Origin: Chitinophagales bacterium
Lineage (GTDB): Bacteria; Bacteroidota; Bacteroidia; Chitinophagales; Chitinophagaceae
DNA length: 64,000 nt
Direction: 5' to 3'
Assembly: GCA_038207265.1 (NCBI GenBank)
Contig: JBBQZZ010000014.1
Span: 47,224 to 111,223 of the forward strand
Positions 17,780-57,744 of the stretch are shown here, in pieces. The position numbers were made by a program, and so were the translations under genes. Position 1 is the stretch's first letter. The number at the start of each line of letters is the position of its first letter. The notes beneath the pieces are model-generated. The model saw nothing but the letters and a program-made list of their open reading frames with translations. It did not search any database and had not been told where the DNA came from.

Positions 17780-18280
17780 ATGAATAATAACAAAAAGTGG
17801 TTAGCGCTTTATACCAAACCCCGCTGGGAAAAAAAAGTAAATGAACTTTTAACCAGCAAAGGATTTGAAAGTTACTGTCCGCTGAATAAGGTTCACCGAA
17901 AATGGAGCGACCGAATTAAATTAATAGAGGAGCCTTTATTTAAGTCTTATGTATTTGTACACATCCAGGATGAAGAACAAACAAAAATCAGGCTGGTAAA
18001 TGGAGTGCTGAATTTTGTTTATTGGCTGGGTAAACCCGCCATCATCAAACCCCAGGAAATTGATCGGATCAAACGTTTCCTGAACGACTATGAAGATGTA
18101 ACTACCGAATCACTTCATATAAAACCCAATGACCAGGTATTGGTAAAAGCCGGTGCATTAATGGACAAGGAAGCAAAGGTAATAAGGCAACTGGGTAACA
18201 GGGTAGAATTGGAAATAGAAAGCCTGGGTTATAAGTTGGTAGCTTATGTAGATAAGAAGAACCTGAGTAAGCTGCGGTGA
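17780..18280 (+). CDS. UpxY-family (NusG-like) transcription antiterminator
   Basis: KKWLALYTKPRWEKKV...L...GFESYCPL...RKWSDR.K.IEEPLFKSYVFV (NGN domain) plus a C-terminal KOW-like ...DQVLVKAGALMDKEAKV. It is the first gene of the polysaccharide locus. Confidence 0.85.
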   Translation: MNNNKKWLALYTKPRWEKKVNELLTSKGFESYCPLNKVHRKWSDRIKLIEEPLFKSYVFVHIQDEEQTKIRLVNGVLNFVYWLGKPAIIKPQEIDRIKRFLNDYEDVTTESLHIKPNDQVLVKAGALMDKEAKVIRQLGNRVELEIESLGYKLVAYVDKKNLSKLR

Positions 18281-18430
18281 ACCTGCCTACCGGTAGGCAA
18301 GCCTGCCTGCCGGTAAGAAGGTTAGGGGAAACTGAACCGGGAGATTTTTTACTTTTTACTTTTGAATTTTTAACTATTGAACAGCTTGCCCATAGAAAAC
18401 TGAATTAATGAATATATTTGAACGCATTTA

Positions 18431-19216
18431 ATGATGAATATGAAAGCTCTTTATAACATCGTCGGAATATTATTACTATGGCTGTTTAGTTCCTGTAGCA
18501 GCACAAAAAATTTACAGTATATGCAGGGCAGTTTTGACACTACAAAAATGTCTTCGTATAATTTTCCGGTACCCTTTATTCAGAAAGGAGATGTGATAAG
18601 TATAACGGTGTTCAGTGATGCACCTGCTGCTACGGCATTGTATAACCAGTCATCTTCGGGTAGCAGTACAGTGGGTGGCCAGTCATCTGCCGGGTCTGCT
18701 GCTTCGGGTTATATGGTAAATGAAATGGGCGATATCGATTTCCAGGGGATTGGAAAATTACACATAGAGGGATTGAACAAATCCCAATTAACCGAATTGC
18801 TTAATACCAAACTCACCAAATTTTTAACCAATCCATATTATAATATACGGTTTATTAATTATAAAATTACCATTATCGGTGATGTGGCACGTCCAGCTGT
18901 ATATAGTATTCCGTCAGAAAGAGTAAATCTGCTGGAAGCGATTGGGATGGCCGGCGATTTAAGCATTACTGCCAGGCGTGACAATATTAAAATTATACGT
19001 GAAACCAATGGTAAAAGGGAGTTTGGTGAAATAGATCTAAGAAAGCCAGACATATTTTTATCACCCTACTACCAGCTTCAGCAAAACGATATAGTGTATG
19101 TAGATTTCAATAAGACCAAAGCGGCGGCCAATGACCAGGTAACCGTGCGTAATATAACGATTGCTGCCACCATTGTATCTACGCTTGCCATCATCTATTC
19201 TATACTAAGAAGATAA
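18431..19216 (+). CDS. wza: Polysaccharide export outer-membrane protein (Wza family: Poly_export + SLBB)
   Basis: Lipoprotein-like signal (LLWLFSSCSS); ...IQKGDVISITVF...GYMVNEMGDIDFQGIGKLHIEGL...; SLBB-like ITIIGDVARPAVYSIPSERVNLLEAIGMAGD. Confidence 0.85.
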   Translation: MMNMKALYNIVGILLLWLFSSCSSTKNLQYMQGSFDTTKMSSYNFPVPFIQKGDVISITVFSDAPAATALYNQSSSGSSTVGGQSSAGSAASGYMVNEMGDIDFQGIGKLHIEGLNKSQLTELLNTKLTKFLTNPYYNIRFINYKITIIGDVARPAVYSIPSERVNLLEAIGMAGDLSITARRDNIKIIRETNGKREFGEIDLRKPDIFLSPYYQLQQNDIVYVDFNKTKAAANDQVTVRNITIAATIVSTLAIIYSILRR

Positions 19217-19221
19217 AATTT

Positions 19222-21630
19222 ATGTCCGAAGAAGATTTTCATTTTACCAAAAAAAAATCGGTTTTTACACCCCGGGAACTTCTGTTTAATTACATCCGGT
19301 TCCTTCCCTGGCTGATCATATCCGTCGCTTTATTCCTGTTCCTGGCCTATCTCAAACTTCGTTATTCTACCCCGGTATATGCTGTTAACGGAAAGCTATT
19401 AGTAAAGAAAAATAGCAGCCCTTATGGTGCTGGTGGTGGTGGAAAATTTGATGATATTTTTATGTTACAAGGTTCCAGCAATAACCTGAATGATGAAATT
19501 GAAGTGATCAAATCACGTTCAATGGCAGCAAGGGTTATTAAATCACTCTCCCTGCAGACACAGATATATAACAAGGGTAAAATAAAAGATCCTTCTGTTT
19601 TACATTCCTCTGATCTGCCCTTTATTTTTGAGATCAGTAACCAACGGGACACACTCAATGGGTTTAACCTGCAAATCCAGATAGTAAATAGCAGCCAGTT
19701 TCATATTAACCAATCACAAAAACTGTACAATTTCAATGAATATATTGCTTTGCCAATCGGTCAGATCCGGCTTACATTAATCAAACAAAATCTTGATAAA
19801 TTCTCAAGCTCAGATTTTATCATTAATTACCGGGCCCTGGAACCCGCTTCAGCGGCATTGGGCAAATCAATTGGGTTGGTGCAGTCGGGGGAGTTTAATT
19901 CTAATGTGCTCAACATATCTTATGCAACTCCCAATCCTAAACTGGGATTGGACATTGTGAACAGTTTTATGGAGGAGTACCAGCAATTTACCCTGGAAGA
20001 TAAAAAACAAATGCTGGTCAATACCCTGGCCTTTATTGATGAGCAAATGAAAGGAGTGGCCAAAGACCTGGGTGGTGTGGAAAGAAACCTGCAGAGTTTC
20101 AAAGAACAGCGAAGAGTGATTAACCCGGAGGTACAGTCCCAGCTTTTTATCAATTCTTTGTCCGAGTCTACAAAAGATCAAAGTTTACTGGAAGTAAAGA
20201 TCAAAGTCATTGATTTGTTGTTCAACTATATTTCAGATCAAAAAAATCCCTACCGGATTGTTTCCTCTACCCTGGGAATTGCCGAACCCACCTTGTTTCA
20301 ACAGGTAACCGAGTACAATAAATTACAACTGGAAAGAGAAACAGCCTTAAAGACAACTACAGCAGAAAACCCCCTTATCAAAGGGATGGAAGCCGGTATT
20401 GAAAAATTAAAAAGCGATATGCTGGAAAACCTGCGCAACCTGCGCAAAACAATTCAGTTATCCATCAACGATATTAAAATAAAGTCGCAGGAAAATGACA
20501 ACCAGGTAATGAGTATCCCGGCCAAGGAAAAGCAATTGCTGGAAGTGACCCGGCAGCAAAAAATACTGGAAGAATTGTATTCATTCCTGCTGCAAAAAAA
20601 ACTGGAAACCTCCATTTCTTCTGCTTCCACCATATCAAATATAAAAGTGCTGGAACCGGCCATGGCAGCAGGCGAACCCATTTCCCCCAACCGTAAATCT
20701 GTTTATACGGTTTTCTTATTGTTTGGTATTGCCATCCCCGTGGCCATTGTTATTTTAATCGAATATTTAAACGACAAAGTAAAAGCAAAAGCCGATATTG
20801 AAAGGCTCACTACCACACCGGTACTGGGAGAAATTGGTCATGCTGCCGACGCAGGTGCCCTGGTGGTAACTGCGAACAACCGGAAATTCATTGCCGAACA
20901 GTTCCGCATTGTGCGCAGCAACCTGCAATACATCATTCCCAAATCAGACAAGTCGGTGATGATGGTTACTTCTTCGTTTAGTGGTGAGGGTAAGTCTTTT
21001 GTGAGCACCAACCTGGGCGCGGTGATGGCCATTTCGGGCAAACGCACCGTGATACTGGAGTTCGATATCCGCAAGCCGAAAATTATGGAGGGCCTGGGCC
21101 TGAAAGAACGGAGAGGGCTTACCAATTATATTGTCGGCAATATAGACATCCAGGAAATAATTCACCCGGTACCCCATGTAGAAAATCTTTTTGTGATACC
21201 CTGCGGGCCCGTACCGCCCAACCCTTCTGAAATGTTGCTGCATGAAAAAGTAAATTCTTTATTTAAGGAACTCAGGTTACTATTCGATATTGTTATTGTT
21301 GATACCGCCCCTGTGGCGCTGGTGAGTGATGCCATTACACTGGGCCAGCATGCAAACGCTACTGTATATATTGTGAGGCATAATTATACCTACAAAAAAC
21401 AGATCTCGATGATTGACGAGATATATATGCATAAAAAATTGCCCCATATGGCCATTATCATCAATGATGTGGATTTAAAAGGAGGGTATGGTGGCGGCTA
21501 CTATGGTTACGGTAACTATGGCTATGGATACGGTTATGGGTATGGTTATGGCAGTGGTTATTTTGAAGGCGAAGAGGAACCAAGAAAGAAAAAGGGATTC
21601 CTGCGCAGGATAAGAAAATTCTTTTCTTAG
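19222..21630 (+). CDS. wzc: Polysaccharide co-polymerase / BY-tyrosine kinase (Wzc-like)
   Basis: Two TM segments flank a long coiled periplasmic region. The C-terminal P-loop kinase has SSFSGEGKSFVSTNLG (Walker A), ILEFDIRKP (Walker A'), VIVDTAP (Walker B) and a Tyr-rich tail GGYGGGYYGYGNYGYGYGYGYGYGSGYF. Confidence 0.9.
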   Translation: MSEEDFHFTKKKSVFTPRELLFNYIRFLPWLIISVALFLFLAYLKLRYSTPVYAVNGKLLVKKNSSPYGAGGGGKFDDIFMLQGSSNNLNDEIEVIKSRSMAARVIKSLSLQTQIYNKGKIKDPSVLHSSDLPFIFEISNQRDTLNGFNLQIQIVNSSQFHINQSQKLYNFNEYIALPIGQIRLTLIKQNLDKFSSSDFIINYRALEPASAALGKSIGLVQSGEFNSNVLNISYATPNPKLGLDIVNSFMEEYQQFTLEDKKQMLVNTLAFIDEQMKGVAKDLGGVERNLQSFKEQRRVINPEVQSQLFINSLSESTKDQSLLEVKIKVIDLLFNYISDQKNPYRIVSSTLGIAEPTLFQQVTEYNKLQLERETALKTTTAENPLIKGMEAGIEKLKSDMLENLRNLRKTIQLSINDIKIKSQENDNQVMSIPAKEKQLLEVTRQQKILEELYSFLLQKKLETSISSASTISNIKVLEPAMAAGEPISPNRKSVYTVFLLFGIAIPVAIVILIEYLNDKVKAKADIERLTTTPVLGEIGHAADAGALVVTANNRKFIAEQFRIVRSNLQYIIPKSDKSVMMVTSSFSGEGKSFVSTNLGAVMAISGKRTVILEFDIRKPKIMEGLGLKERRGLTNYIVGNIDIQEIIHPVPHVENLFVIPCGPVPPNPSEMLLHEKVNSLFKELRLLFDIVIVDTAPVALVSDAITLGQHANATVYIVRHNYTYKKQISMIDEIYMHKKLPHMAIIINDVDLKGGYGGGYYGYGNYGYGYGYGYGYGSGYFEGEEEPRKKKGFLRRIRKFFS

Positions 21631-21723
21631 AATGGTTCAATTTATTGTTTTGATTTTTTGTTCTTTTGATTCATCAATTTACTGCATCTAACCCGGACCC
21701 GAACATTGTGCCGGCTTTAATTA

Positions 21724-22602
21724 ATGATACAAATGAAAGAGGCTAAAAGTCAGGATTCCAATTCATGGGACCTTGTAATTGAACCACGCGACCATATTTT
21801 TAAACTGCACCTGAAAGAAGTCTGGCGTTATAAATACCTGTTGTGGATGTTCGTAAAAAGAGATCTGGTTTCTGTATACAAACAAACTATCCTGGGACCC
21901 ATCTGGTTTTTCATTCAACCCATTTTAACCACGGTTACCTTCGTGGTCATTTTTGGTAATATCGCAAAAATTTCAACAGATGGCTTACCGCAGATTTTAT
22001 TTTACCTCGCGGGTATTACCATTTGGAATTATTTTTCAGAAACACTCACCGCAACCAGCAGCACTTTTATTACCAATGCCCCCATTTTTGGAAAAGTATA
22101 TTTTCCCCGCCTGGTATTACCTCTTTCTAAAGTAATCTCGGGGCTTATCAAATTTGGTATCCAATTTCTGTTGTTTGCACTGGTGTTTTTTTATTATTTA
22201 GTCAAAGGATCAGCGATTCACCCTGATACCCTGGGTATTTTTATGGTAACACCTGTTGTCATCCTCATTATGGCAGGGCTCGGCCTTGGGCTGGGTCTCA
22301 CTCTTTCTGCTCTGACCACTAAATACCGCGATCTTGTTTTCCTGATCTCTTTTGGTATACAGTTGGGCATGTATGCGACTCCTGTTATTTATCCAGTATC
22401 TACTATCTCATCGAAATATAAATGGGTAATTGAGGCTAATCCCATGTCTTCGTTGGTAGAGGCTTTCCGCAAAGCATGGCTTGGCGAAGGAGTGTTAAGC
22501 TGGCTATGGATAGGGTACAGTTTTGTTTTTATGGCAATATTACTTGTAATAAGTACTATTATTTTTAACCGTGTGGAAAAAACTTTTATGGATACAGTTT
22601 AA
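21724..22602 (+). CDS. wzm: ABC-2 type polysaccharide exporter permease (Wzm-like)
   Basis: Typical N-terminal ...WRYKYLLWMFVKRDLVSVYKQTILGPIWFFIQP, with about 6 TM helices. It is followed by the cognate ATPase. Confidence 0.85.
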   Translation: MIQMKEAKSQDSNSWDLVIEPRDHIFKLHLKEVWRYKYLLWMFVKRDLVSVYKQTILGPIWFFIQPILTTVTFVVIFGNIAKISTDGLPQILFYLAGITIWNYFSETLTATSSTFITNAPIFGKVYFPRLVLPLSKVISGLIKFGIQFLLFALVFFYYLVKGSAIHPDTLGIFMVTPVVILIMAGLGLGLGLTLSALTTKYRDLVFLISFGIQLGMYATPVIYPVSTISSKYKWVIEANPMSSLVEAFRKAWLGEGVLSWLWIGYSFVFMAILLVISTIIFNRVEKTFMDTV

Positions 22603-22751
22603 CGACGGATAGTAAGGCTTGTTCAAAAAATTAAAGTTTAATATATAAAGGATTAATTGATTCAAGTATGAATCTCTGAAGTGATTTCAAATGTGGGAAC
22701 CTTAAACTTTCAACCCAGTGCTTCATTCGTATTTTTTAGACTACAAATAAA

Positions 22752-24050
22752 ATGTCAGCAATAATACAGGTAACTAACATCAGCAAACAATATCGGCTAG
22801 GGCAGGTAGGTACAGGTACGATATCTCATGATTTGAACCGCTGGTGGCACCGGGTAAGGGGAAAAGAAGATCCCTATATCAAAATAGGTGAAGAAAATGA
22901 TCGTAGCAAAAAAGGGGAAAGCGACTATGCGTGGGCGTTAAGGGATATTAATTTTGAAGTGCAACAGGGAGAAGTGCTGGGCATCATCGGCCGCAATGGA
23001 GCCGGTAAAAGCACCCTATTAAAAATACTCAGCCGCACCACATCGCCAACTACTGGTCAAATTAATATAAAAGGGCGGGTGGCCAGTCTGCTTGAAGTAG
23101 GCACCGGTTTTCATCCGGAGCTCACCGGCCGTGAAAATATTTTTTTAAATGGGGCCATTCTGGGCATGACCAAGCAGGAGATAAAAAGAAAATTTGATGA
23201 GATAGTTGATTTTGCAGGCGTGGAGCGGTATATAGATACACCCGTAAAGCGTTACAGCAGTGGTATGTATGTGCGCCTGGCCTTTGCTGTTTCGGCCAAT
23301 CTTGAATCGGAAATACTGATTGTAGATGAAGTGCTGGCAGTAGGAGATACAGAATTTCAAAAAAAATGCCTGGGTAAAATGAATGATGTGAGCAAAGGAG
23401 AGGGAAGAACTGTATTGTTTGTAAGTCATGACATGCAGGCTGTTTCAACATTAACGACGAAAGCAATTTTTTTAAATCAAGGTGTAATTGTAAAAAGCGG
23501 ATATACCAGAGAAATAATTAAATTATATATTGATTCAAAGAAAGCCACGGGCTTGGAGTACGTCGCAGATGGGTTAAATAAGGATCCGCATGTAAGTAAG
23601 ATAAATTTAGAAACATCATTGCCTAATAATCATCAATTGAATGGTGATAAGATGCAAGTAATTGTAACTCTTACTAGTCATTTTCCGATTAAGGGTGCTT
23701 GTTTCTCAATTCAGTTTGTAGATTCAAAAGAAAGGAACTTTTCACATTTTTGGATATTTGACAAAGAGATTGAATATTGTAGGGAATCAGGTACATATCA
23801 ATTGACTTGTAGCATACCTGCTTTACGATTATATATGGGTAAATATTATCTTAAATGTTATTTTTCCGAGGGGCCCGGAGGAAGGGTTTTTGAAGTTTTA
23901 GAAAATATATGTCCATTTGAAGTAAAGATGTATGATTCTACAAGAGAGGAGTTTCAATGGTATCCTGAAGCTTGTGCTTACATTGAAGAATCAAAATGGG
24001 ATGTAAAAAAATTAGAGCATGCGAATATTGAACCATTTCAAAAGAAATAA
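22752..24050 (+). CDS. wzt: ABC polysaccharide exporter ATPase with ~180 aa C-terminal extension (Wzt-like)
   Basis: Walker A GRNGAGKSTLLK, signature YSSGMYVRLAFA, Walker B ILIVDEVLAVGD and H-loop FVSHD. Residues ~250-432 form an extra beta-rich domain, as in Wzt proteins that bind a terminal glycan cap. Confidence 0.9.
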   Translation: MSAIIQVTNISKQYRLGQVGTGTISHDLNRWWHRVRGKEDPYIKIGEENDRSKKGESDYAWALRDINFEVQQGEVLGIIGRNGAGKSTLLKILSRTTSPTTGQINIKGRVASLLEVGTGFHPELTGRENIFLNGAILGMTKQEIKRKFDEIVDFAGVERYIDTPVKRYSSGMYVRLAFAVSANLESEILIVDEVLAVGDTEFQKKCLGKMNDVSKGEGRTVLFVSHDMQAVSTLTTKAIFLNQGVIVKSGYTREIIKLYIDSKKATGLEYVADGLNKDPHVSKINLETSLPNNHQLNGDKMQVIVTLTSHFPIKGACFSIQFVDSKERNFSHFWIFDKEIEYCRESGTYQLTCSIPALRLYMGKYYLKCYFSEGPGGRVFEVLENICPFEVKMYDSTREEFQWYPEACAYIEESKWDVKKLEHANIEPFQKK

Positions 24051-24810
24051 AGTATTTACACAAGTGTTATCTACTGAAGCACAGACACAATTAGAATATC
24101 AACGAGGTAATGTATATGGAGAATTCCCTTCTGATTTTTCAGAAGAAGAAAAGCAATTAATTCAATCTGTAAACATTTATACAATGACCAGCTATGAAAG
24201 ACTAGTTAGTTTGAGTAGAGCCGTTGAATATATTGAAAAAAATGGAATTGAAGGTGATATAGTCGAATGTGGGGTATGGAAAGGTGGAAGTATGATGCTG
24301 GCTGCACAGATGCTTGTTAAATTAAATAATCAATCAAGAAGACTTTTTTTGTTTGACACATTTGAAGGAATGTCTAAACCCGATTCAAATGATGTGAGTT
24401 TTAACAATATAAGGGCTGCTGATATTTACGATCAAATTACCGAGAATAATAAATTGGATGGAGCCTGGTGTTACTCTTCGATTGACGAAGTTAAGGCTAA
24501 TCTTAAAAAAACTGGTTATAATGAGTCTAATATGCACTTTATAAAAGGGAAAGTTGAGGATACTCTGCCCTTGAAAGAAATAAGTAAGGTATCAATTTTA
24601 AGGCTTGATACAGATTGGTATGAATCAACAAGACATGAATTGGAAACGCTTTATGATAAATTGGTCGTTGGTGGAGTTTTGATTATAGATGATTACGGAC
24701 ATTGGGCTGGTGCTAGGAAGGCTGTCGATGAATTCATTGAAGAAAAAAAGTGTAAAATATTCTTAACCCGGATTGATTATACCTGCAGATTAGCAATTAA
24801 AATAAACTAA
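24019..24810 (+). CDS. TylF/MycF-family (macrocin-type) O-methyltransferase
   Basis: GDIVECGVWKGGSMM, LFLFDTFEGM, LRLDTDWYEST and GGVLIIDDYGHWAGARKAVDEF are the hallmark blocks of the family. The listed ATG overlaps wzt by 32 nt, so the true start is uncertain. Confidence 0.85.
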   Translation: MRILNHFKRNKVFTQVLSTEAQTQLEYQRGNVYGEFPSDFSEEEKQLIQSVNIYTMTSYERLVSLSRAVEYIEKNGIEGDIVECGVWKGGSMMLAAQMLVKLNNQSRRLFLFDTFEGMSKPDSNDVSFNNIRAADIYDQITENNKLDGAWCYSSIDEVKANLKKTGYNESNMHFIKGKVEDTLPLKEISKVSILRLDTDWYESTRHELETLYDKLVVGGVLIIDDYGHWAGARKAVDEFIEEKKCKIFLTRIDYTCRLAIKIN

Positions 24811-24812
24811 TT

Positions 24813-25649: not shown

Positions 25650-25650
25650 G

Positions 25651-26583: not shown

Positions 26584-26584
26584 T

Positions 26585-28171: not shown

Positions 28172-28174
28172 AAA

Positions 28175-28921: not shown

Positions 28922-28922
28922 A

Positions 28923-33872: not shown

Positions 33873-33880
33873 CGTATAAA

Positions 33881-36513: not shown

Positions 36514-36523
36514 TTGATTCGTT

Positions 36524-37627: not shown

Positions 37628-37639
37628 CTTTTCCTCGTT

Positions 37640-42974: not shown

Positions 42975-42977
42975 ACA

Positions 42978-44402: not shown

Positions 44403-44428
44403 TCTTTTCTTACGCTAACAATTCTCAT

Positions 44429-46394: not shown

Positions 46395-46396
46395 TT

Positions 46397-49370: not shown

Positions 49371-51097
49371 TGTATATTCTCGGGATCAACGCTTATCATG
49401 CTGATTCATCAGCCGCTATTTTTAAGGACGGAACAATGATTGCCGCTACTGAAGAGGAGCGTTTTACGCGCATCAAACACTGGGCAGGGTTTCCTGTTTT
49501 ATCAATTAAATTTTGTTTGAAGGAAGCAGGTATTGCCTTGAAAGATCTTGATTACATAACGATAGGCCGCGATCCAAAAGCAAAATTTCTAAACAAACTG
49601 AATTACCTCCGCAAAAATCCTTCACTGGTTTTTGGTGCTATTACACGTTATAAAAACAGTAAACAGGTTACCAGCCTGGAAGATGAATTTAAAAAGATCG
49701 ATCCCACTATTTCTTTTGATGCTTTGAAAAGCAAGATCAAGAATATTGAACATCACAGGAGCCACCTCGCTTCTGCATTTTTCGCTTCACCCTTTGAAGA
49801 ATCTGCCATTCTTTCTATTGATGGTTCCGGCGATTTTACTACTACCATGATAGCGATTGGAAAGGGAAATAAAATTGAAGTGCTGGACAGTGTCGACTTC
49901 CCGGTTTCCTGTGGACTATTTTATACGGCATTTACGCAATTCCTCGGTTTCCCGCATTATGGTGATGAATACAAAGTAATGGGACTGGCACCTTATGGCG
50001 AACCCAAATACGTTGATAAAGTAAAAAAGCTATTGAAATTTTTACCAAACGGATTATTTACATGGGACGATTCATTTTTTATTCAGCCCACAAAGGCTGG
50101 CTTCAAATATGAAAATCATATCCCCTCAGTGGGAAATTTATATTCAGCTGCCTTTGTGAAAGAATTTGGTCCGCCCCGAAATAATACAGAAGCACTATCA
50201 GCCTATCATAAAGATCTGGCAACCTCTGTTCAGCGGGTAACAGAAGAGCTGATATTTTATATTCTCAGAAAGCTGAAGGAAAGAACCGGTATGAAGAACA
50301 TTTGCATAGCGGGTGGGGTTGCACAAAATTCTGTTGCAAATGGTAAAGTAGCAGAAGCTACCGGATTTGAAGGCGTGTATATTCCTTCGGCAGGTCATGA
50401 TGCAGGTATCTCTATGGGTTCCGCATTATACCTTTATAATGATGTATTGGAACAACCGAGATCGGCTCCAATCTATTCTGCATACACCGGTAGTAAATTT
50501 ACCAATGATGAAATAGAATTATTTTTACAATCGAGAGGCGTTCATTACAGGAGACTAAGCAATGATGAGTTATATGATGTTGTGACAAATAAGTTGATAG
50601 AACCCGGTGTGGTAGGATGGTTCAATGGCAGGGCAGAATTTGGCCCAAGAGCACTGGGAGCCCGTTCAATCATTGCGGATCCGAGAAATCCAAAAGCAAA
50701 AGATCTGCTGAATCTTAAAATTAAAAGAAGAGAGAGTTTCCGCCCTTTTGCACCGTCTGTATTGAAAGAATATTCCGGGGAATACTTTACAAAATCAGAT
50801 GAAGTACCTTTCATGGAAAAAGTATTTCCCGTGAAACCGGAAAAGCATGCTGTAATACCGGCCGTAACGCATGTTGATGGAACGGGCAGGTTACAAACGG
50901 TGGACAAAAAAATATCACCCATGTATTATGGATTGATTGATGCATTCAGGAAAAAGACAGGGGTGCCAATATTATTGAATACTTCCTTTAACGAAAATGA
51001 GCCGATTGTAAATACACCTGCTGAAGCACTGGATTGCTTTTTGAGAACACAAATGGATATGCTTGTCCTTGAAAATTGTGTAATTACCAGAGAATAG
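49370..51097 (+). CDS. NodU/CmcH-family carbamoyltransferase
   Basis: MYILGINAYHADSSAAIFKDG...AATEEERFTRIKH, IEHHRSHLASAF, ...GGVAQNS, FGPRALGARSI and ...LNTSFN. Confidence 0.9.
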   Translation: MYILGINAYHADSSAAIFKDGTMIAATEEERFTRIKHWAGFPVLSIKFCLKEAGIALKDLDYITIGRDPKAKFLNKLNYLRKNPSLVFGAITRYKNSKQVTSLEDEFKKIDPTISFDALKSKIKNIEHHRSHLASAFFASPFEESAILSIDGSGDFTTTMIAIGKGNKIEVLDSVDFPVSCGLFYTAFTQFLGFPHYGDEYKVMGLAPYGEPKYVDKVKKLLKFLPNGLFTWDDSFFIQPTKAGFKYENHIPSVGNLYSAAFVKEFGPPRNNTEALSAYHKDLATSVQRVTEELIFYILRKLKERTGMKNICIAGGVAQNSVANGKVAEATGFEGVYIPSAGHDAGISMGSALYLYNDVLEQPRSAPIYSAYTGSKFTNDEIELFLQSRGVHYRRLSNDELYDVVTNKLIEPGVVGWFNGRAEFGPRALGARSIIADPRNPKAKDLLNLKIKRRESFRPFAPSVLKEYSGEYFTKSDEVPFMEKVFPVKPEKHAVIPAVTHVDGTGRLQTVDKKISPMYYGLIDAFRKKTGVPILLNTSFNENEPIVNTPAEALDCFLRTQMDMLVLENCVITRE

Positions 51098-51102
51098 ACG
51101 TT

Positions 51103-51849
51103 ATGCGTATTTCAATTATTACGGTGTCCTATAATAGTGCTGGTACCATCCGCGATACGCTGGAAAGTATCCGCCGGCAAACCCATGATAATATTGAACA
51201 CATCATTGTTGATGGTAAATCCGCCGATGGCACGCTTGAGATCATTAAATCTTTCAATCATGTTGACAGGTTCATTTCTGAAACAGATAAAGGGTTGTAC
51301 GACGCCATGAACAAGGGTTTGCAAATGGTTACGGGTGATGTTGTCGGAATGTTGAACAGTGACGACTTCTATGCCCATAATGATGTGTTGAAAAAAATTG
51401 CTGCCGCGTTTGAAAACCCCGGCACATATTGTGCATATGGAGATCTGCAATATGTAAATGCCCAAAACCCCGGCAAAATAGTTCGAACCTGGAAAGCGGG
51501 AAAATTTAATCTGAAAAACTTTTTATACGGATGGATGCCGCCCCATCCAACTTTTTTCGTGAGGAAAGAAGTATATGAAAAGGTGGGATTGTTCAATACA
51601 ACATTTAAGACTGCTGCCGATTATGAAATGATGCTGCGCATTTTATATAAACACGAATTTCCGGTGGTGTATATTCCGGAAGTGTTGGTGAAAATGCGTT
51701 CGGGCGGGATAAGCAATGCTTCCCTCAGAAACAGGTTCAAAGCCAATCGTGAAGATGCAAGGGCATGGACACTGAACAACAAGCGTCCTCATTTTTTTAC
51801 ACTGTATTTAAAACCATTGCGGAAAATTCCGCAATATCTTATCAAATAA
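51103..51849 (+). CDS. Family 2 glycosyltransferase
   Basis: [40 protein letters not shown] and ...LNSDD. Start at ATG 51103, after the carbamoyltransferase stop. Confidence 0.85.
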
Positions 51850-51851
51850 TT

Positions 51852-52967
51852 ATGCAAAAAATCGCTTTAGTTACCGGTGCTACCGGGCAGGATGGAGCTT
51901 ATCTGTGTGATCTGCTTTTGAAGAAAGGTTATATTGTTCACGGACTTAAAAGAAGAAGTTCTTTGTTTAATACAGAAAGAATCGATCATCTATACCAGGA
52001 TCCGCATGAAAAAAATGTAAAACTTCATTTGCATTACGGAGATCTCACAGACTCTACCAACCTAATCAGGATCATCCAGGAAACACAACCAGATGAAATT
52101 TATAACCTGGCAGCGATGAGCCATGTTCAGGTAAGCTTTGAAATACCTGAATACACTGCCAATGCAGATGGTATTGGTACATTAAGAATATTAGAAGCGG
52201 TGCGTTTACTGGGCATGACAAAAAAAACAAAAGTTTACCAGGCATCTACTTCTGAATTATACGGGTTGGTGCAGGCAGTGCCACAATCAGAATCAACACC
52301 CTTTTATCCAAGATCTCCTTATGCGGTGGCAAAATTATATGCATATTGGATCACCGTCAACTACCGCGAAGCCTACGGTATGTTTGCCGTAAATGGGATT
52401 TTATTCAATCATGAATCTCCGTTGCGTGGTGAAACATTTGTAACCCGCAAAATAACAAGAGGCGTTGCTAAGATTGCGTTGGGCCTGCAGGATAAAATCT
52501 TCCTCGGCAACCTGGATGCAAAAAGAGACTGGGGTCATGCAAAAGATTATGTAGAAGCCATGTGGCTGATCCTGCAGCAGGAAAATCCGGAAGACTATGT
52601 AATTGCAACGGGTATCACAACACCAGTACGTGAGTTTGTAAGAATGGCCTTTAACGAAGTAGGTATCGAAATTGAATTCTCGGGTTTCGGAGAAAATGAA
52701 AAGGGCACTGTAAAATCCTGCGGTAACCCTGCCTATCAAATGGAAATCGGCAGAGAAGTAATTGCCGTGGACCCAAGGTATTATCGTCCTACAGAAGTTG
52801 ATCTGTTAATTGGAGATCCTTCAAAATGCCAGCAGCAACTGGGCTGGAAACCAAAATACAACCTTGCCATGCTGGTTAAAGAAATGGTGGTGAGCGATGT
52901 GGAATTGTTTAAAAAAGAAAGATTACTGAAAGAAGCGGGGTATAATATTAAAAATCAATTTGAATAA
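51852..52967 (+). CDS. gmd: GDP-mannose 4,6-dehydratase
   Basis: [78 protein letters not shown] and [11 protein letters not shown]. Start at ATG 51852. Confidence 0.92.
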
Positions 52968-53059
52968 TATACAGGTGTCATTGGGCCGCAGGATTAACTG
53001 CTGAATTGAATGAAACTTAGCATGCACACTGTCAATTTAAAATTGAATCTTATCAATCA

Positions 53060-54004
53060 ATGAACAAGCAGGATAAAATTTATATAGCCGGTCACAGGGG
53101 AATGGTTGGATCAGCCATTCTGAGGAAATTGCAACAGGAAGGGTTTACAAATCTTTTGTTGCGTACATCCGGGGAACTTGATTTACGCAACCAGCAACAG
53201 GTAACTGATTTTTTTGCACAGGAAAAACCAGGTTATGTTTTTATGGCTGCTGCCAAAGTGGGTGGTATCATTGCTAACAATACTTACCGTGCTGATTTTT
53301 TATTTGAAAACCTGGCCATACAAAATAATGTCATTCATTCTTCTTATGTAAATAACGTAACCAAATTACTCTTTCTTGGTTCCTCCTGTATCTATCCAAA
53401 ACTGGCGCCGCAACCTTTGAAAGAAGATTACCTGCTTACCGGGTTGCTTGAACCAACCAATGAACCTTATGCCATCGCCAAAATTGCAGGCATCAAATTA
53501 TGCGACGCCTACCGTTCTCAGTATGGATGCAATTTTATTTCTGTAATGCCCACCAATTTATATGGTCCCAACGACAATTATAATTTAAACAATTCGCATG
53601 TATTACCAGCGTTGATCAGGAAAATGCATGAAGCAAAGATCAACGGGCACGCGGAAGTAACCATTTGGGGAACGGGCAAGCCTATGCGCGAATTTTTGTA
53701 TGCAGATGATTTAGCAGATGCCTGTTATTTCCTGATGCAGCAATACAATGAACCCGGTCTGATCAATATTGGAACCGGTGTTGACATCCCAATAAAGGAT
53801 CTTGCACTACTGGTAAAAGATATTGTTGGCTATACCGGCGGCATTAATTTTGATTTATCCAAACCAGATGGTACACCAAGAAAGTTGATGGATGTAACCA
53901 AACTTACAAACCTTGGATGGAAAGCCGGTGTTGATTTGAAAACAGGTATTCAAATGGCTTATCAGGATTTCATTCAGCAATATAGTTCTGTTCACCATGT
54001 ATAA
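53060..54004 (+). CDS. fcl: GDP-L-fucose synthase (GDP-4-keto-6-deoxymannose 3,5-epimerase/4-reductase)
   Basis: [17 protein letters not shown], ...[25 protein letters not shown] and NLYGPNDN. Immediately downstream of gmd. Confidence 0.9.
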
Positions 54005-54032
54005 ATAAAACTGAAATAATTTTCAGTCCCGT

Positions 54033-54770
54033 ATGTTTACATTTTTTAAAAGAAAATATCCCGCATCCCCGCCAGATTTCAGTGCTGTAAAAACGGATAT
54101 GCACTCTCATCTTTTACCGGGTATTGATGATGGTTCACCAGACACGGAAACTTCCCTGCTATTGATTAATGGCCTTACAGACTTGGGTTACCGGCAGTTT
54201 ATCACTACCCCGCATATTATGTGGGACCTGTATAAAAATACTCCGCTCACCATTGGCGATACATTGAAAAAATTGCGCAAGACTGAAAAGATACCTGCCA
54301 TGAGGGCCGCTGCAGAATATTTTATTGATGATTATTTTGATGCTTTAATGGATAAGGATGAACCATTGCTTACCATTTCCGGTAAACAGGTATTGGTTGA
54401 ATTTTCTTTTGTTGCGGCGCCAATGGATTTAAAAGATCAGTTGTTCAAATTGCAGATAAAAGGTTATGAACCCATCCTGGCCCACCCGGAACGGTATACT
54501 TATCTGGCCGGCAATAAGATTTTGTTCGATGATCTTAAAAGCATGGGCTGCCTTTTTCAATTGAACCTGCTCTCACTTTCCGGGTATTATGGCAAAGTTT
54601 CCCAGGACCTCGCCCATTATCTCATTTCAAAAAATTATATAGACCTGGTGGGAACCGATTTGCACCACCAACGCCACTTAGATGCACTTCGCAGCAGCAA
54701 AAACATACTGAACGCTGTTCAACAACTGCTGGATAGCGGTAAGTTGCAAAATCCCGCACTTTCTTTTTAA
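54033..54770 (+). CDS. PHP-family protein-tyrosine phosphatase (CpsB/YwqE type)
   Basis: DMHSHLLPGIDDGS, TPHIM, LAHPERY and GTDLHH. Confidence 0.85.
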   Translation: MFTFFKRKYPASPPDFSAVKTDMHSHLLPGIDDGSPDTETSLLLINGLTDLGYRQFITTPHIMWDLYKNTPLTIGDTLKKLRKTEKIPAMRAAAEYFIDDYFDALMDKDEPLLTISGKQVLVEFSFVAAPMDLKDQLFKLQIKGYEPILAHPERYTYLAGNKILFDDLKSMGCLFQLNLLSLSGYYGKVSQDLAHYLISKNYIDLVGTDLHHQRHLDALRSSKNILNAVQQLLDSGKLQNPALSF

Positions 54771-55979
54771 TTGTCCCCCACATTGCCTCAAACCATCATG
54801 ATTATATTGAACCGGCTGGTAGTAGGTGGTACCGCCATGAACACACTTCATTTAATCAATGCGTTGAAAAAAGACTACAACGTAATACTGGTCACTGGTG
54901 CCAAAGAACAAGATGAACTGGAAGTTGATTACAGGTCTGCTTTTCTGCAACATGTAGAACACATTCGTTTACCTGCTCTTGTAAGAAGTGTGAACCCGGT
55001 CAGGGATCTGGCAGCGTTCAAAAACATAAAAAAGCTGATCAAAAAATACAGGCCACAATTGCTGCAAACCATTGGAGCAAAACCCGGATTTATCGGCCGT
55101 GTAGCGGCATGGCAACTAGGCGTCCCCGTTATTATGCATGCGTATCATGGAGACGTTTTTCATTCTTATTTTAATCCGCTGTTATCGAAAACCGTGATTT
55201 GGCTGGAACGATTTGCAGCCTCAAAATCTACCTGCATAACAACGGTCAGTGCAAAACAAAAAAATGAACTGGAGAATGTTTACCAAATAGCGCCGGCAAA
55301 AAAAATAGTGCATATCCCCATCGGTATCCAGGTAGCGAAATTTTTTGATGATGCGGGAACGTTACGGCATCAATTCAGGCAACAATATTTGCTGGACGAA
55401 CATGAGATTGCCATTGGCATCATTGGAAGAATAGTACCGGTAAAGAACCATGAACTTTTTCTGCAGATTGTAAAAGCTTTTTATGACAAACAGGAAAAGA
55501 ACACCAGGTTTTTTATTATCGGGGATGGCGCCGGTTTAAGACAGAAACTGGAGGATAAACTAAGACAATGGAAAATTGACTTCACTTACTATCCTGAAAA
55601 TAAAAAAAAGGCTTTCGTCACATTTACTTCATGGATCAGCAATATCCAAACTGCCGTCAATGGTTTGGATATGGTTGTATTGACTTCCAGGAACGAAGGC
55701 ACACCTGTGTCACTGATTGAGGCCCAGGCTGCCGGAAAGCCCATTGTATCAAGCAATGCAGGAGCCATTGATGAAGTAATGCTAAGAGACGTCAGTGGCT
55801 TTATCTGCAATTCAAAAGATCCATCCGATTATATCCACGCTATCCAACAACTTATTAGTAATCCGGAACTTCGTTTCCAAATGGGTCAATCTGGCAAATC
55901 CTTTGTTCAGAAAAAATTTCAACTCTCCACGCAGGTTGCTGCAACGCTGGCACTTTACGAATCTCTTCTATCTTCCTAA
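54771..55979 (+). CDS. Family 4 (GT-B) glycosyltransferase
   Basis: SRNEGTPVSLIEAQAAGKPIVSSNAGAIDEV. TTG start as in the track. It is the last gene of the polysaccharide locus. Confidence 0.8.
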   Translation: MSPTLPQTIMIILNRLVVGGTAMNTLHLINALKKDYNVILVTGAKEQDELEVDYRSAFLQHVEHIRLPALVRSVNPVRDLAAFKNIKKLIKKYRPQLLQTIGAKPGFIGRVAAWQLGVPVIMHAYHGDVFHSYFNPLLSKTVIWLERFAASKSTCITTVSAKQKNELENVYQIAPAKKIVHIPIGIQVAKFFDDAGTLRHQFRQQYLLDEHEIAIGIIGRIVPVKNHELFLQIVKAFYDKQEKNTRFFIIGDGAGLRQKLEDKLRQWKIDFTYYPENKKKAFVTFTSWISNIQTAVNGLDMVVLTSRNEGTPVSLIEAQAAGKPIVSSNAGAIDEVMLRDVSGFICNSKDPSDYIHAIQQLISNPELRFQMGQSGKSFVQKKFQLSTQVAATLALYESLLSS

Positions 55980-57726: not shown

Positions 57727-57744
57727 ATATTTATTAGCTAAAGG

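What the first reader, a model, noticed from the sequence alone, without database searches (positions are those of the whole stretch)
17780..55979. 38-kb polysaccharide locus mixes Wza/Wzc/CpsB and a Wzy/WaaL-like protein with a Wzm/Wzt ABC exporter, but has no Wzx and no initiating transferase
All ~38 genes are co-directional behind upxY. Outer-membrane export (Wza), a BY-kinase co-polymerase (Wzc) and its PHP phosphatase (33 kb downstream) are hallmarks of Wzx/Wzy-type capsule assembly, and a Wzy_C-like membrane protein is present. However, I see no MATE-like Wzx flippase. The only inner-membrane exporter is the ABC-2 pair Wzm/Wzt. I also find no undecaprenyl-phosphate sugar phosphotransferase, neither the WbaP/bacterial sugar transferase type nor the WecA/MraY type. 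Either one very elaborate glycan is polymerised in the cytoplasm, exported by the ABC system and handed to Wza/Wzc, or two pathways are interleaved under one antiterminator. In the first case the Wzy_C protein would act as a ligase. Neither arrangement is the textbook organisation for Bacteroidota upxY loci.
Basis: partly seen in the sequence, partly recalled or inferred. Interest (0 to 1): 0.7.

Follow-up and report, generated by a model that had tools for sequence, protein, structure and literature searches.

The report
Hybrid ABC / Wzy-type polysaccharide locus
This 38-kb operon of a Chitinophagaceae-like soil bacterium does combine an O-antigen-type ABC exporter with capsule-type Wza/Wzc/phosphatase and a Wzy-type polymerase but no flippase or priming enzyme; the layout is common across its family and uncharacterised, not a one-off oddity.

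Summary
The gene content described is real. There are 36 contiguous co-directional ORFs (17780-55979): UpxY, Wza, a BY-kinase Wzc, Wzm, Wzt, many sugar-modifying enzymes, about 12 glycosyltransferases, one Wzy-like membrane protein and a CpsB phosphatase. No Wzx (MOP flippase), Bac_transf or WecA/MraY-type gene occurs anywhere in the 64-kb window.

New findings:
- The layout is lineage-wide. The head (UpxY-Wza-Wzc-Wzm-Wzt) and tail (Wzy-like...CpsB) are syntenic at one chromosomal site across Chitinophagaceae.
- In 24 of 35 wider Bacteroidota metagenome loci, a kinase-bearing Wzc lies within 10 kb of the Wzm homologue.
- Wzm/Wzt is the O-antigen type. The Wzt C-terminal carbohydrate-binding domain is hypervariable and lies in a low-GC cassette with four methyltransferases, which is the classical signature of cap-dependent export.
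- The 474-aa membrane protein belongs to a large Pfam-less family. That family is remotely tied to Wzy polymerases, not to WaaL ligases, and has no conserved His.
- No relative shows a Wzx or priming enzyme in the sequence examined.

An unlinked priming enzyme is ordinary for ABC loci. The missing Wzx and the Wzc-ABC coupling are the unusual parts. I rate this a new variant of known kinds, of moderate interest, with the mechanism unresolved.

The parts
17473..17480 (+). Candidate Bacteroidota -7 promoter motif (TATATTTG), about 300 nt upstream of upxY. Two further motif sites (18357, 18413) lie in the upxY-wza gap.
   Evidence: This is a motif match only. The motif is depleted in the window (42 matches against 85 expected). 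Weak evidence.
17780..18280 (+). UpxY-type NusG-like antiterminator, first gene of the locus.
   Evidence: PF02357 NusG 1e-18. It is 58-67% identical to the first gene of the syntenic loci L004, L006, L007, L088-L095.
18282..18320 (+). GC-rich perfect hairpin just after upxY, followed about 30 nt later by a U-rich tract. It may be an attenuator or processing site.
   Evidence: the 106-nt stretch folds at -33.3 kcal/mol, z = -2.9 against shuffles. Function not tested.
18431..19216 (+). Short OPX protein (Wza, 261 aa): lipoprotein signal, Poly_export and one SLBB domain, C-terminal hydrophobic helix.
   Evidence: PF02563 2e-14 and SLBB 2e-6; sequence and TM estimate.
19222..21630 (+). Wzc, a PCP-2a co-polymerase with a C-terminal BY-kinase and a tyrosine cluster (11 Tyr in 30 residues).
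   Evidence: Wzz, GNVR and P-loop domains; NF008568 Wzc 1e-57 and TIGR01007 4e-41; two TM segments and the Y-cluster in the translation.
21724..22602 (+). Wzm, ABC-2 permease. The true start is probably 21733, giving 289 aa.
   Evidence: PF01061 2e-19. It is 66-86% identical to the listed best hits among Chitinophagaceae-type proteins. The closest solved relatives are RfbD, TarG and Aquifex Wzm (6e-12 to 1e-10); KpsM is weaker at 2e-5.
22752..23531 (+). Wzt nucleotide-binding domain (conserved part).
   Evidence: PF00005 1e-22. It is 55-83% identical across 51 homologues. GC is 42.2%.
23532..24050 (+). Wzt C-terminal carbohydrate-binding-type domain (hypervariable specificity module).
   Evidence: Wzt_C 27.6 bits, below the 30.4 cutoff. 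One alignment to full-length Aquifex Wzt (8dku/7k2t) runs through residue 395 at 3.9e-64. Identity is 12-24% in all 51 homologues. GC is 33.3%.
23532..28921 (+). Low-GC cassette (32.5% GC against about 40% elsewhere). It holds the Wzt C-terminal domain, four methyltransferases (24019-24810 TylF-type, 24813-25649, 25651-26583, 26537-28171 FkbM-type) and a GT2 (28175-28921). Proposed role: the cap and specificity cassette.
   Evidence: Composition; Pfam. The left boundary coincides with the junction between the nucleotide-binding and C-terminal domains of Wzt.
28923..32485 (+). WbsX-family GT, two GT2 enzymes and a hexapeptide acyltransferase (semi-conserved block).
   Evidence: PF14307 3e-136, PF00535, Hexapep. 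The same order is seen in L044 and partly in L056.
32485..35035 (+). HisH-like and HisF-like proteins plus a WbuX N-acetyl-sugar amidotransferase. Inferred role: formation of an acetamidino sugar.
   Evidence: GATase 3e-18 and His_biosynth 7e-62; TIGR03573 WbuX 4.5e-84, above its cutoff.
35036..37627 (+). GFO/MocA oxidoreductase, small hexapeptide acetyltransferase and DegT aminotransferase. Inferred role: a WbpB/D/E-like route to a 2,3-diacetamido sugar.
   Evidence: The three are conserved at 52-84% in many relatives.
37640..38788 (+). Conserved soluble protein with no Pfam hit (382 aa); probably a divergent GT-B glycosyltransferase.
   Evidence: No Pfam or NCBIfam hit. There are 31 syntenic homologues. 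A profile finds nothing in PDB sequences. It has a C-terminal N..HK..EY motif. The GT assignment is inference.
38769..39800 (+). Acyl_transf_3 membrane O-acyltransferase.
   Evidence: PF01757 1e-22.
39797..42974 (+). GT4, a Glyco_trans_1_2 protein and a second conserved soluble protein with no Pfam hit (374 aa, probably GT-B) directly upstream of the polymerase-like gene.
   Evidence: Conserved in 26-29 relatives.
42978..44402 (+). 474-aa polytopic membrane protein, a member of a large Pfam-less family related to Wzy-type repeat-unit polymerases.
   Evidence: TIGR04370 1.2e-5 for the window protein and in 44 of 57 family members, best 3e-11. Distant relatives hit PF14296/PF01901 and never PF04932. 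There are 2836 representative clusters at E<=1e-3. The AF2 model has pLDDT 85.8 and shows about 10 TM helices, a ~105-aa loop, then 3 TM helices. R260, R304, R341 and K347 are invariant and there is no conserved His. Foldseek finds no PDB match.
44429..54004 (+). Conserved tail block: Gmd-like SDR, GT4, AsnB-type amidotransferase, GT4, carbamoyltransferase, GT2, Gmd and an Fcl-like epimerase/reductase.
   Evidence: Synteny in 27-59 of 62 relatives' loci.
54033..54770 (+). CpsB-type PHP tyrosine phosphatase, the presumed partner of the Wzc kinase.
   Evidence: PF19567 9.5e-38. It sits at the end of the locus next to the MerR-B12 gene in relatives too.
54771..55979 (+). Terminal GT4 glycosyltransferase, not conserved in relatives.
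   Evidence: PF00534 2e-28 and PF13439 4e-19. Only weak homologues (22-28% identity), at other positions, occur in relatives' loci.

Best explanation
This is the Chitinophagaceae version of a modular, UpxY-led surface-polysaccharide super-operon. I propose three modules.

(a) Export and regulation set: Wza (OPX), Wzc (PCP-2a BY-kinase) and the CpsB phosphatase, which bracket the locus.

(b) A cap-dependent, O-antigen-type ABC line. GT2/WbsX transferases build a chain on undecaprenyl-PP at the cytoplasmic face. Enzymes of the adjacent methyltransferase cassette cap it. The matching C-terminal carbohydrate-binding domain of Wzt recognises the cap, and Wzm-Wzt exports the chain.

(c) A family-conserved module that makes a heavily decorated heteroglycan. 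Its predicted components are a 6-deoxyhexose made from GDP-mannose, a 2,3-diamino uronic acid carrying an acetamidino or amide group, and carbamoyl and O-acyl groups. The module has 7-8 single-domain glycosyltransferases and a divergent Wzy-type polymerase that joins units at the periplasmic face.

The priming phosphoglycosyltransferase is encoded elsewhere, as wecA is for enterobacterial ABC O-antigens. I propose that both lines deliver polymer to the same Wzc/Wza translocon, so that Wzc/Wza do for the ABC exporter what KpsE/KpsD do for KpsMT. The flippase for the Wzy-type line is either an unlinked Wzx or Wzm-Wzt itself.

Shown: gene content, absences in cis, synteny, cassette boundary, family relationships. 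Inferred: every biochemical step, co-transcription, and the Wzc-ABC coupling.
For: - Gene map and absences.
- One transcription unit is plausible: 31 of 35 junctions are <=28 nt and no terminator-like site lies in the gaps.
- Lineage-wide synteny at a fixed site, between the HGSNAT-like and metallophosphoesterase genes on one side and the MerR-B12/ECF-sigma/crt genes on the other.
- Wzm and the 474-aa protein lie on the same contigs in at least 11 assemblies, judged by matching contig lengths.
- The ABC line is O-antigen type. Wzt matches full-length Aquifex Wzt at 3.9e-64 against 5e-28 for KpsT-type structures. Wzm matches RfbD, TarG and Wzm better than KpsM.
- Cap-cassette logic: the Wzt nucleotide-binding domain is 55-83% identical but the C-terminal domain only 12-24% in 51 homologues. 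A GC step from 42% to 33% falls at the domain junction and continues through the four methyltransferases. Published systems export only terminated chains, read by a serotype-specific CBM on Wzt (PMC11231755).
- Coupling of Wzc to the ABC exporter: in 24 of 35 metagenome loci with >=5 kb upstream of a Wzm homologue, a kinase-bearing Wzc lies within 10 kb. In 12 of them wzc directly abuts wzm. Three loci have two Wzm-Wzt pairs flanking UpxY-Wza-Wzc.
- Polymerase assignment. Functional Arg residues in the periplasmic loops of Wzy are described in PMC12004945.
Against: - No experiment or transcript data exists.
- Gene adjacency does not prove that Wzc/Wza serve the ABC line.
- L056 shows the tail with Wzc but no ABC genes, so the modules can function apart.
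- A Wzy-type polymerase without a cis-encoded Wzx is unusual, and I could not search any whole genome for an unlinked Wzx, PGT or WaaL.
- The polymerase assignment rests on sub-threshold profile hits. The confident AF2 model found no solved structural relative.
- Only +/-10 kb around the markers was visible in relatives.
- The TM counting and the PGT motif test are heuristics.
Confidence: 0.4

Rival explanations
1. Two fully conventional pathways that merely share an operon. Wzm-Wzt and the cap cassette make an LPS O-antigen that an unlinked WaaL ligates and Lpt carries outward. The conserved tail with the Wzy-type polymerase, Wzc, Wza and CpsB makes a Wzx/Wzy-dependent capsule or EPS, with its Wzx and priming enzyme encoded elsewhere. 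The two lines have no functional link.
For: - The modules are separable: L056 has Wzc plus the tail without ABC genes, and distant loci have ABC genes without the tail.
- Bona fide Wzy_C ligase genes sit near Wzm-Wzt in some distant loci, L140 and L153.
- Unlinked WecA is the norm for ABC O-antigens (PMC11231755).
- PCP-2 proteins are classed with Wzy-dependent systems (PMC12220298).
Against: - wzc directly abuts wzm in 12 loci and lies within 10 kb in 24 of 35, including loci with no Wzy-like gene in view.
- No Wzx lies within 10 kb of the polymerase-like gene in the 80 genome-derived loci, where linked wzx would be expected.
- CpsB and Wzc bracket the whole locus, ABC module included.
Confidence: 0.3
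2. A single hybrid line in which the ABC-2 exporter replaces Wzx. Capped undecaprenyl-PP-linked units or blocks are exported by Wzm-Wzt, joined by the Wzy-type polymerase under Wzc control, and secreted through Wza.
For: - wzx is absent lineage-wide while wzm-wzt sit immediately after wzc.
- The tail has many single-domain GTs, as expected for a repeat unit, while the cassette after wzt is rich in modifying and capping enzymes rather than GTs.
Against: - L056 lacks both Wzx and Wzm/Wzt downstream of wzc.
- Known Wzm-Wzt systems export completed, terminated polymers (PMC11231755).
- No precedent was found in four literature searches.
Confidence: 0.2
3. The 474-aa protein is the lineage's O-antigen ligase (WaaL-like). 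All glycan is made in the cytoplasm, exported by Wzm-Wzt and ligated to lipid A-core.
For: - Its topology, a large periplasmic loop near the C-terminus, is shared with WaaL.
- About 50% identity across genera would fit a conserved acceptor.
- Ligase genes do occur in some Wzm-Wzt loci.
Against: - No conserved His exists anywhere in the family. The only two His in the window protein are 81% and 9% conserved, and neither lies in the loop.
- Wzy_C is hit by 1 of 57 close members and 0 of 76 distant members, while Wzy polymerase models are hit by 44 of 57 and 7 of 76.
- Foldseek finds no match to solved WaaL structures.
- This reading does not explain Wza, Wzc or CpsB.
Confidence: 0.07

Closest known systems
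E. coli O8/O9a and Klebsiella O3/O5/O12/O4 ABC-transporter-dependent O-polysaccharide systems (Wzm-Wzt with a C-terminal CBM and a chain terminator such as WbdD)
   Same: ABC-2 permease plus a Wzt carrying a C-terminal carbohydrate-binding-type domain. That domain is serotype-like variable and lies next to methyltransferase genes. The priming enzyme is not in the locus. The closest solved homologue is the Aquifex Wzm-Wzt O-antigen transporter (PMC11231755, PMC3482155).
   Different: Here the exporter genes directly follow an OPX and a BY-kinase PCP-2a. The same operon carries a Wzy-type polymerase and a tyrosine phosphatase. No WaaL is in view.
E. coli group 1 capsule / colanic acid type Wzx/Wzy-dependent systems (Wza-Wzb-Wzc, Wzx, Wzy, WbaP/WcaJ)
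   Same: OPX lipoprotein, PCP-2a with a Y-cluster kinase, a cognate phosphatase, a Wzy-type polymerase and many single-domain GTs.
   Different: No Wzx and no priming PGT in cis, in this genome or in any relative within the sequence examined. The phosphatase is a PHP CpsB-type enzyme rather than an LMW-PTP Wzb. The Wza is short (261 aa).
E. coli group 2 capsule export (KpsMT-KpsE-KpsD) and the Vi antigen VexABCDE
   Same: The general idea of an ABC-2 exporter genetically coupled to a PCP and an OPX (PMC12220298).
   Different: The PCP is a kinase-bearing PCP-2a, not PCP-3. There are no KpsC/KpsS (Capsule_synth) genes. The ABC proteins resemble Wzm/Wzt and TarGH much more than KpsMT.
Bacteroides fragilis / B. 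thetaiotaomicron UpxY-regulated capsule loci
   Same: A NusG-like UpxY is the first gene of a long co-directional polysaccharide operon.
   Different: No UpxZ-like ORF follows UpxY. There is no wzx and no priming transferase in the locus, and an ABC exporter is present. The comparison with Bacteroides loci rests on my own knowledge.
Dual-chain cell-wall polysaccharide assembly in Lactococcus lactis / Enterococcus faecalis (ABC-exported rhamnan plus Wzx/Wzy-type decorations), and P. aeruginosa CPA, an ABC pathway primed by WbpL from another locus
   Same: One locus combines an ABC-exported chain with a polymerase-type membrane protein, and the priming enzyme is shared or unlinked. This is from my own knowledge and was not tested here.
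   Different: Those Gram-positive loci do encode a flippase for the second chain. They lack OPX and PCP-2a outer-membrane export.

Membership tests
Wzx/Wzy-dependent polysaccharide pathway | MOP-family Wzx flippase encoded with the polymerase | tested here: not met
   No Polysacc_synt/MOP hit in any ORF. The window's only ORFs with three or more TM segments are accounted for otherwise. In the 87 loci then in hand, all other polytopic ORFs are Acyl_transf_3 or MBOAT, apart from one weak Wzy_C hit. The rest of the genome could not be searched.
Wzx/Wzy-dependent polysaccharide pathway | Priming polyprenyl-phosphate sugar-phosphate transferase (WbaP/PglC type or WecA type) | tested here: not met
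   No Bac_transf or Glycos_transf_4 hit. The DE[LIVFM]PQ motif is absent from the window, and 1.5 Mb of relatives' loci gave a single match on the antisense strand with no other PGT features. Presence elsewhere in the genome could not be tested.
Wzx/Wzy-dependent polysaccharide pathway | Wzy-type repeat-unit polymerase | tested here: inconclusive
   TIGR04370 is below its cutoff in the window protein (24.5 against 40 bits) but is hit by 44 of 57 family members, best 3e-11. PF14296/PF01901 are hit by 7 of 76 distant relatives. Invariant Arg/Lys residues lie in and beside the large loop. Foldseek finds no solved relative.
Wzx/Wzy-dependent polysaccharide pathway | PCP-2a with BY-kinase and Y-cluster, OPX, and a cognate phosphatase | tested here: met
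Cap-dependent ABC-transporter O-polysaccharide pathway (O8/O9a type) | Wzm ABC-2 permease and Wzt ATPase of the O-antigen/teichoic type | tested here: met
Cap-dependent ABC-transporter O-polysaccharide pathway (O8/O9a type) | Serotype-specific carbohydrate-binding domain at the C-terminus of Wzt | tested here: met
   Wzt_C is sub-threshold at 27.6 bits. The alignment to full-length Aquifex Wzt runs through the C-terminal domain. That domain is 12-24% identical against 55-83% for the nucleotide-binding domain in 51 homologues. Binding itself was not tested.
Cap-dependent ABC-transporter O-polysaccharide pathway (O8/O9a type) | Chain-terminating enzyme that installs the cap | not testable with these tools
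   Four methyltransferase genes directly follow wzt in the same low-GC cassette. Their substrate is unknown.
Cap-dependent ABC-transporter O-polysaccharide pathway (O8/O9a type) | WaaL ligase that attaches the product to lipid A-core | tested here: not met
   No Wzy_C protein in the window. The 474-aa family lacks the conserved His. The rest of the genome was not searchable.
Group 2 (KpsMT/KpsE/KpsD) ABC capsule system | KpsC/KpsS linker enzymes and a PCP-3 (KpsE) without a kinase | tested here: not met
   No Capsule_synth hit. The PCP has a full kinase domain, and the BexC/CtrB/KpsE model gives only 3e-6, far below its cutoff.
WaaL / O-antigen ligase family (PF04932) | Pfam Wzy_C domain and a conserved catalytic His in the large periplasmic loop | tested here: not met
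   No Pfam hit for the window protein. One of 57 close members and 0 of 76 distant members hit Wzy_C. No column has more than 81% His, and none of the conserved His lies in the loop. That the His is required comes from my knowledge of WaaL literature.
Bacteroides-type UpxY capsule locus | UpxY first gene, UpxZ second, wzx, wzy and a priming enzyme inside the locus | tested here: not met
   UpxY is present. There is only a 150-nt gap before wza, with no ORF. Relatives have a hexapeptide acyltransferase gene there. wzx and a priming enzyme are absent.

The most novel reading that the evidence does not exclude
In Chitinophagaceae, and perhaps many environmental Bacteroidota, an O-antigen-type Wzm-Wzt exporter with a cap-reading domain works directly with a BY-kinase PCP-2a/OPX translocon and a Wzy-type polymerase. 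It would take the place of Wzx. That would be a third, hybrid assembly route outside the Wzx/Wzy versus ABC dichotomy, with tyrosine phosphorylation regulating ABC-dependent export.
Probability: 0.2. Interest if true: 0.8.

Novelty: new variant of a known kind. Interest (0 to 1): 0.5.

Why it matters
Current schemes assign PCP-2a BY-kinases and Wzy to Wzx-dependent pathways, and PCP-3 proteins to ABC capsule pathways. Here a kinase-bearing Wzc sits next to a cap-dependent Wzm-Wzt exporter in a whole bacterial family and in many other Bacteroidota. A conserved Wzy-type polymerase also has no linked flippase.

If the coupling is functional, it would extend the classification of bacterial polysaccharide export. 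It would also point to tyrosine-phosphorylation control of an ABC route.

If it is only co-location, the locus still gives three things:
- a defined, conserved 'common polysaccharide' module for Chitinophagaceae, which are abundant soil and rhizosphere bacteria;
- a large unannotated Wzy-like family (about 2,800 clusters at 50% identity);
- a clean natural example of domain-level cassette swapping in Wzt.

Tried and rejected
- Exact look-ups of the window's own 474-aa protein found no contig on record, so the source genome could not be read beyond the window. The cluster look-up gave no name.
- A PDB sequence-profile search and Foldseek against the PDB found nothing significant for the 474-aa family, despite a confident model. 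Neither WaaL nor any other solved fold could be assigned.
- Profiles of the two Pfam-less soluble proteins found nothing in PDB sequences. I ran no further search on them, because they have no membrane segment and so cannot be the missing flippase or a membrane-embedded priming enzyme.
- The sigma-70 promoter scan is uninformative for Bacteroidota. The TAnnTTTG scan gives only weak candidates.
- Four literature searches found no description of this architecture in Chitinophagaceae or Bacteroidota. The cyanobacterial survey PMC4594306 reports genomes lacking obvious Wzx and/or KpsM/Wzm, but no linked hybrid locus.
- Contexts of three distant members of the 474-aa family were on contigs too short to be informative.
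- I rejected the idea that the locus is decayed or non-functional. All 36 ORFs are intact, and the core is conserved at 37-93% identity across genera.
- I rejected a KpsMT-type capsule.

Full report
**1. What is in the window**

ORF listing and junction measurement show 36 contiguous + strand ORFs from 17780 to 55979. Thirty-one of the 35 junctions are <=28 nt and 17 overlap. The four larger gaps are 150, 93, 149 and 92 nt. No terminator-like hairpin lies in any gap, and terminator counts do not exceed shuffles.

Pfam and NCBIfam scans of every ORF give, in order:
- UpxY (NusG 1e-18).
- A 261-aa OPX lipoprotein, Wza.
- An 802-aa Wzc with Wzz, GNVR and autokinase domains and 11 Tyr in its C-terminal tail.
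- Wzm and Wzt.
- Four methyltransferases.
- GT2, WbsX, GT2, GT2 and a hexapeptide acyltransferase.
- HisH-like, HisF-like and WbuX (acetamidino-sugar chemistry).
- A GFO oxidoreductase, a small acetyltransferase and a DegT aminotransferase (WbpB/D/E-like).
- A Pfam-less soluble protein of 382 aa.
- An Acyl_transf_3 membrane acyltransferase.
- GT4, a Glyco_trans_1_2 protein and a second Pfam-less soluble protein of 374 aa.
- A 474-aa polytopic membrane protein.
- A Gmd-like SDR, GT4, AsnB, GT4, a carbamoyltransferase, GT2, Gmd and Fcl-like.
- A CpsB PHP phosphatase and a last GT4.

Downstream are a MerR/B12-binding regulator, an ECF sigma factor, and phytoene desaturase and synthase genes. Upstream, on the minus strand, are transglutaminase-like, HGSNAT-like and metallophosphoesterase genes.

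**2. The absences are real within the window**

- No ORF hits a MOP/Wzx, Bac_transf or Glycos_transf_4 model.
- A hydropathy scan of all six frames finds only six ORFs with three or more TM segments in 64 kb, and all are otherwise assigned.
- The conserved DE[LIVFM]PQ motif of monotopic phosphoglycosyltransferases is absent from all frames. That motif comes from my own knowledge of PglC/WbaP.

The rest of the genome could not be read. The exact proteins are in the protein collection, on a 116,419-bp contig, but have no retrievable contig.

**3. The architecture is lineage-wide**

The 474-aa protein has hundreds of full-length relatives at about 50% identity, without any Pfam annotation. The few that are named come from Chitinophagaceae and Puia. 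Wzm has very many relatives; the 120 best listed are 66-86% identical.

Gene neighbourhoods show a conserved head: HGSNAT(-) | UpxY - (hexapeptide acyltransferase) - Wza - Wzc - Wzm - Wzt - FkbM methyltransferase, followed by variable genes.

They also show a conserved tail... Glyco_trans_1_2 - Pfam-less protein - 474-aa protein - GT4 - AsnB - GT4 - carbamoyltransferase - GT2 - Gmd - Fcl - CpsB | MerR-B12, ECF sigma.

A scan of GTDB representative genomes returned 80 loci. Nearly all are from Chitinophagaceae genera: Niastella, Flavihumibacter, Puia, Flavitalea, Paraflavitalea, Pinibacter, Longitalea, Pollutibacter, Ferruginibacter, Agriterribacter and Terrimonas. The tail synteny holds in most of them. 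Matching contig lengths show that Wzm and the 474-aa protein share a contig in at least 11 assemblies.

In the 87 loci then in hand (1.5 Mb), every additional polytopic membrane ORF is an Acyl_transf_3 or MBOAT acyltransferase, apart from one weak second Wzy_C-like protein. The PGT motif gave only one match, on the antisense strand and with no other PGT features. The missing Wzx and priming enzyme are therefore a property of the lineage, not of this genome.

**4. The ABC line is a classical cap-dependent O-antigen type**

Wzt's best solved relative is the full-length Aquifex aeolicus Wzt. A single alignment runs through its carbohydrate-binding domain at 3.9e-64, while KpsT-type structures score 5e-28. 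Wzm is closest to RfbD, TarG and Aquifex Wzm.

Against 51 full-length homologues, the nucleotide-binding domain is 55-83% identical but the C-terminal domain only 12-24%.

Within the window, GC drops from 42.2% to 33.3% exactly at the domain junction. It stays at 32.5% through the four methyltransferases and the first GT2 (23532-28921), against about 40% elsewhere.

This is the pattern expected if the C-terminal domain and the capping enzymes are exchanged together as one specificity cassette. Published O3/O5/O12/O4 systems export only terminated chains, recognised by a serotype-specific CBM on Wzt. They are primed by WecA, which is encoded in another locus (PMC11231755; see also PMC3482155). 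For this module, the missing priming enzyme is therefore ordinary.

**5. The membrane protein is Wzy-like, not WaaL-like**

- The window protein has no Pfam hit and a sub-threshold TIGR04370 'oligosaccharide repeat unit polymerase' hit. Across the family, 44 of 57 members hit that model, best 3e-11. Two hit O-ag_pol_Wzy and one hits Wzy_C weakly.
- A profile search of 1.84 billion representatives finds 2,836 clusters at E<=1e-3.
- Of 76 distant members, six hit O-ag_pol_Wzy, one hits O_anti_polymase and none hits Wzy_C.
- K256, R260, R304, R341 and K347 (window numbering), including the PRxLWPxKP motif, stay invariant even in the distant set.
- No histidine is conserved. H58 is 81% conserved and H232 is 9%, and neither lies in the large loop. 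WaaL-type ligases depend on a conserved loop histidine (my knowledge). Wzy function depends on loop arginines (PMC12004945).
- The AlphaFold model is confident (pLDDT 85.8, pTM 0.87). It shows about ten helices, a ~105-residue loop and three more helices. Foldseek finds no PDB match at E<=0.001, and a sequence profile finds none either.

I therefore read the protein as a divergent Wzy-type polymerase, with moderate confidence.

**6. Wzc and the ABC exporter are associated well beyond this family**

A metagenome scan with Wzm returned 80 loci. Of 35 loci with at least 5 kb upstream of the Wzm homologue:
- 24 carry a Wzc-type protein with the kinase domain within 10 kb.
- 18 carry a UpxY and 12 a Wza.
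- In 12, wzc directly abuts wzm.

Arrangements include CpsB-Wza-Wzc-Wzm-Wzt, Wza-Wzc-UpxY-Wzm-Wzt, and two Wzm-Wzt pairs flanking UpxY-Wza-Wzc. Additional membrane proteins in these loci are O-antigen ligases (Wzy_C, two loci), GT-C-like proteins and acyltransferases, and never a Wzx.

Current reviews assign PCP-3 to ABC capsule systems and PCP-2 to Wzy-dependent capsules (PMC12220298). This recurrent pairing is therefore outside the usual scheme.

One relative, L056, has Wzc followed by glycosyltransferases, the 474-aa gene and the tail down to CpsB and MerR. It has neither Wzm/Wzt nor Wzx. The modules are therefore separable.

**7. Interpretation**

The evidence supports three modules:
- an export and regulation set (Wza, Wzc, CpsB) behind UpxY;
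- a cap-dependent ABC line with a swappable cassette;
- a family-conserved heteroglycan module with a Wzy-type polymerase.

I favour a model in which both lines feed one Wzc/Wza translocon and priming is unlinked (confidence 0.4). The rivals are:
- the conservative reading of two unrelated conventional pathways sharing an operon (0.3);
- the novel reading in which Wzm-Wzt replaces Wzx (0.2);
- the ligase reading, which is disfavoured (0.07).

None can be settled without whole-genome searches for unlinked Wzx, PGT and WaaL genes, and without genetics.

**8. Novelty**

All components belong to known families. The combination and its wide distribution were not described in anything I could find. 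I rate it a new variant of known kinds, with interest 0.5.

**Limits**

- Only +/-10 kb was visible in relatives.
- The TM and motif screens are heuristic.
- Several relatives come from error-prone long-read assemblies with fragmented genes (for example L003 and L004).
- Co-transcription is inferred from spacing alone.

Noticed in passing
window 56137-60175: Directly downstream of the locus lie a MerR-family regulator with B12-binding domains (CarH-like), an ECF sigma factor, a phytoene desaturase and a phytoene synthase. This looks like a light/B12-regulated carotenoid cluster. The same junction, CpsB then MerR-B12 then ECF sigma then CrtI, is conserved in relatives (L003, L016, L028, L043, L056).
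   Followed up: partly
window 16060-16932 (minus strand); L011, L021, L036, L037, L040, L046, L047, L071, L081: The transglutaminase-like gene sits outside the locus, upstream of upxY on the opposite strand. In nine relatives its homologues (38-45% identity) sit inside the locus on the + strand, just upstream of AsnB and after the 474-aa gene or GT4. It may therefore belong functionally to the polysaccharide system.
   Followed up: partly
window 13648-15954 (minus strand): An HGSNAT-like polytopic acetyltransferase and a metallophosphoesterase lie divergently upstream. They are conserved at 74-79% identity next to UpxY in relatives (L004, L006, L007, L088, L095). A transmembrane acetyltransferase could modify the exported glycan.
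   Followed up: no
window 11366-13640: An APH-type kinase fused to a RapZ C-terminal-like domain is followed by a nucleotidyltransferase. This resembles an AmgK/MurU MurNAc recycling pair.
   Followed up: no
window 22603-22751: A 149-nt AT-rich spacer separates wzm from wzt. In relatives (L005, L006) wzt starts 2 nt after wzm. This may be an insertion scar or an internal regulatory site next to the cassette boundary.
   Followed up: no
window 18282-18320: An 11-bp perfect GC-rich hairpin lies just after upxY, followed by a U-rich tract and two TAnnTTTG motifs (18357, 18413). It could be an attenuator or an internal promoter between upxY and wza. Relatives carry a hexapeptide acyltransferase gene at this position instead.
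   Followed up: partly
L099, L100, L157: Some metagenomic loci carry two Wzm-Wzt pairs, one on each side of UpxY-Wza-Wzc. Each pair has its own divergent Wzt C-terminal domain. This suggests several ABC lines sharing one OPX/PCP set.
   Followed up: partly
L001:15263-17575, L056:12399-14723 and other loci: A ~770-aa protein with a pectate-lyase/beta-helix fold (Pect-lyase_RHGA_epim) is inserted upstream of the second GT4, after AsnB in L001 and after the first GT4 in L056. It may be an epimerase or a depolymerase. It is absent from the window.
   Followed up: no
window 1-64000: The Bacteroidota -7 promoter motif TAnnTTTG occurs 42 times against 85 +/- 9 expected from shuffles, a roughly two-fold depletion across the window.
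   Followed up: no
L086:20624-21379 (minus strand): In Flavihumibacter petaseus NBRC 106054, a second, divergent Wzt-like gene (37% identity) and a GT2 lie on the opposite strand just beyond the tail of the locus.
   Followed up: no
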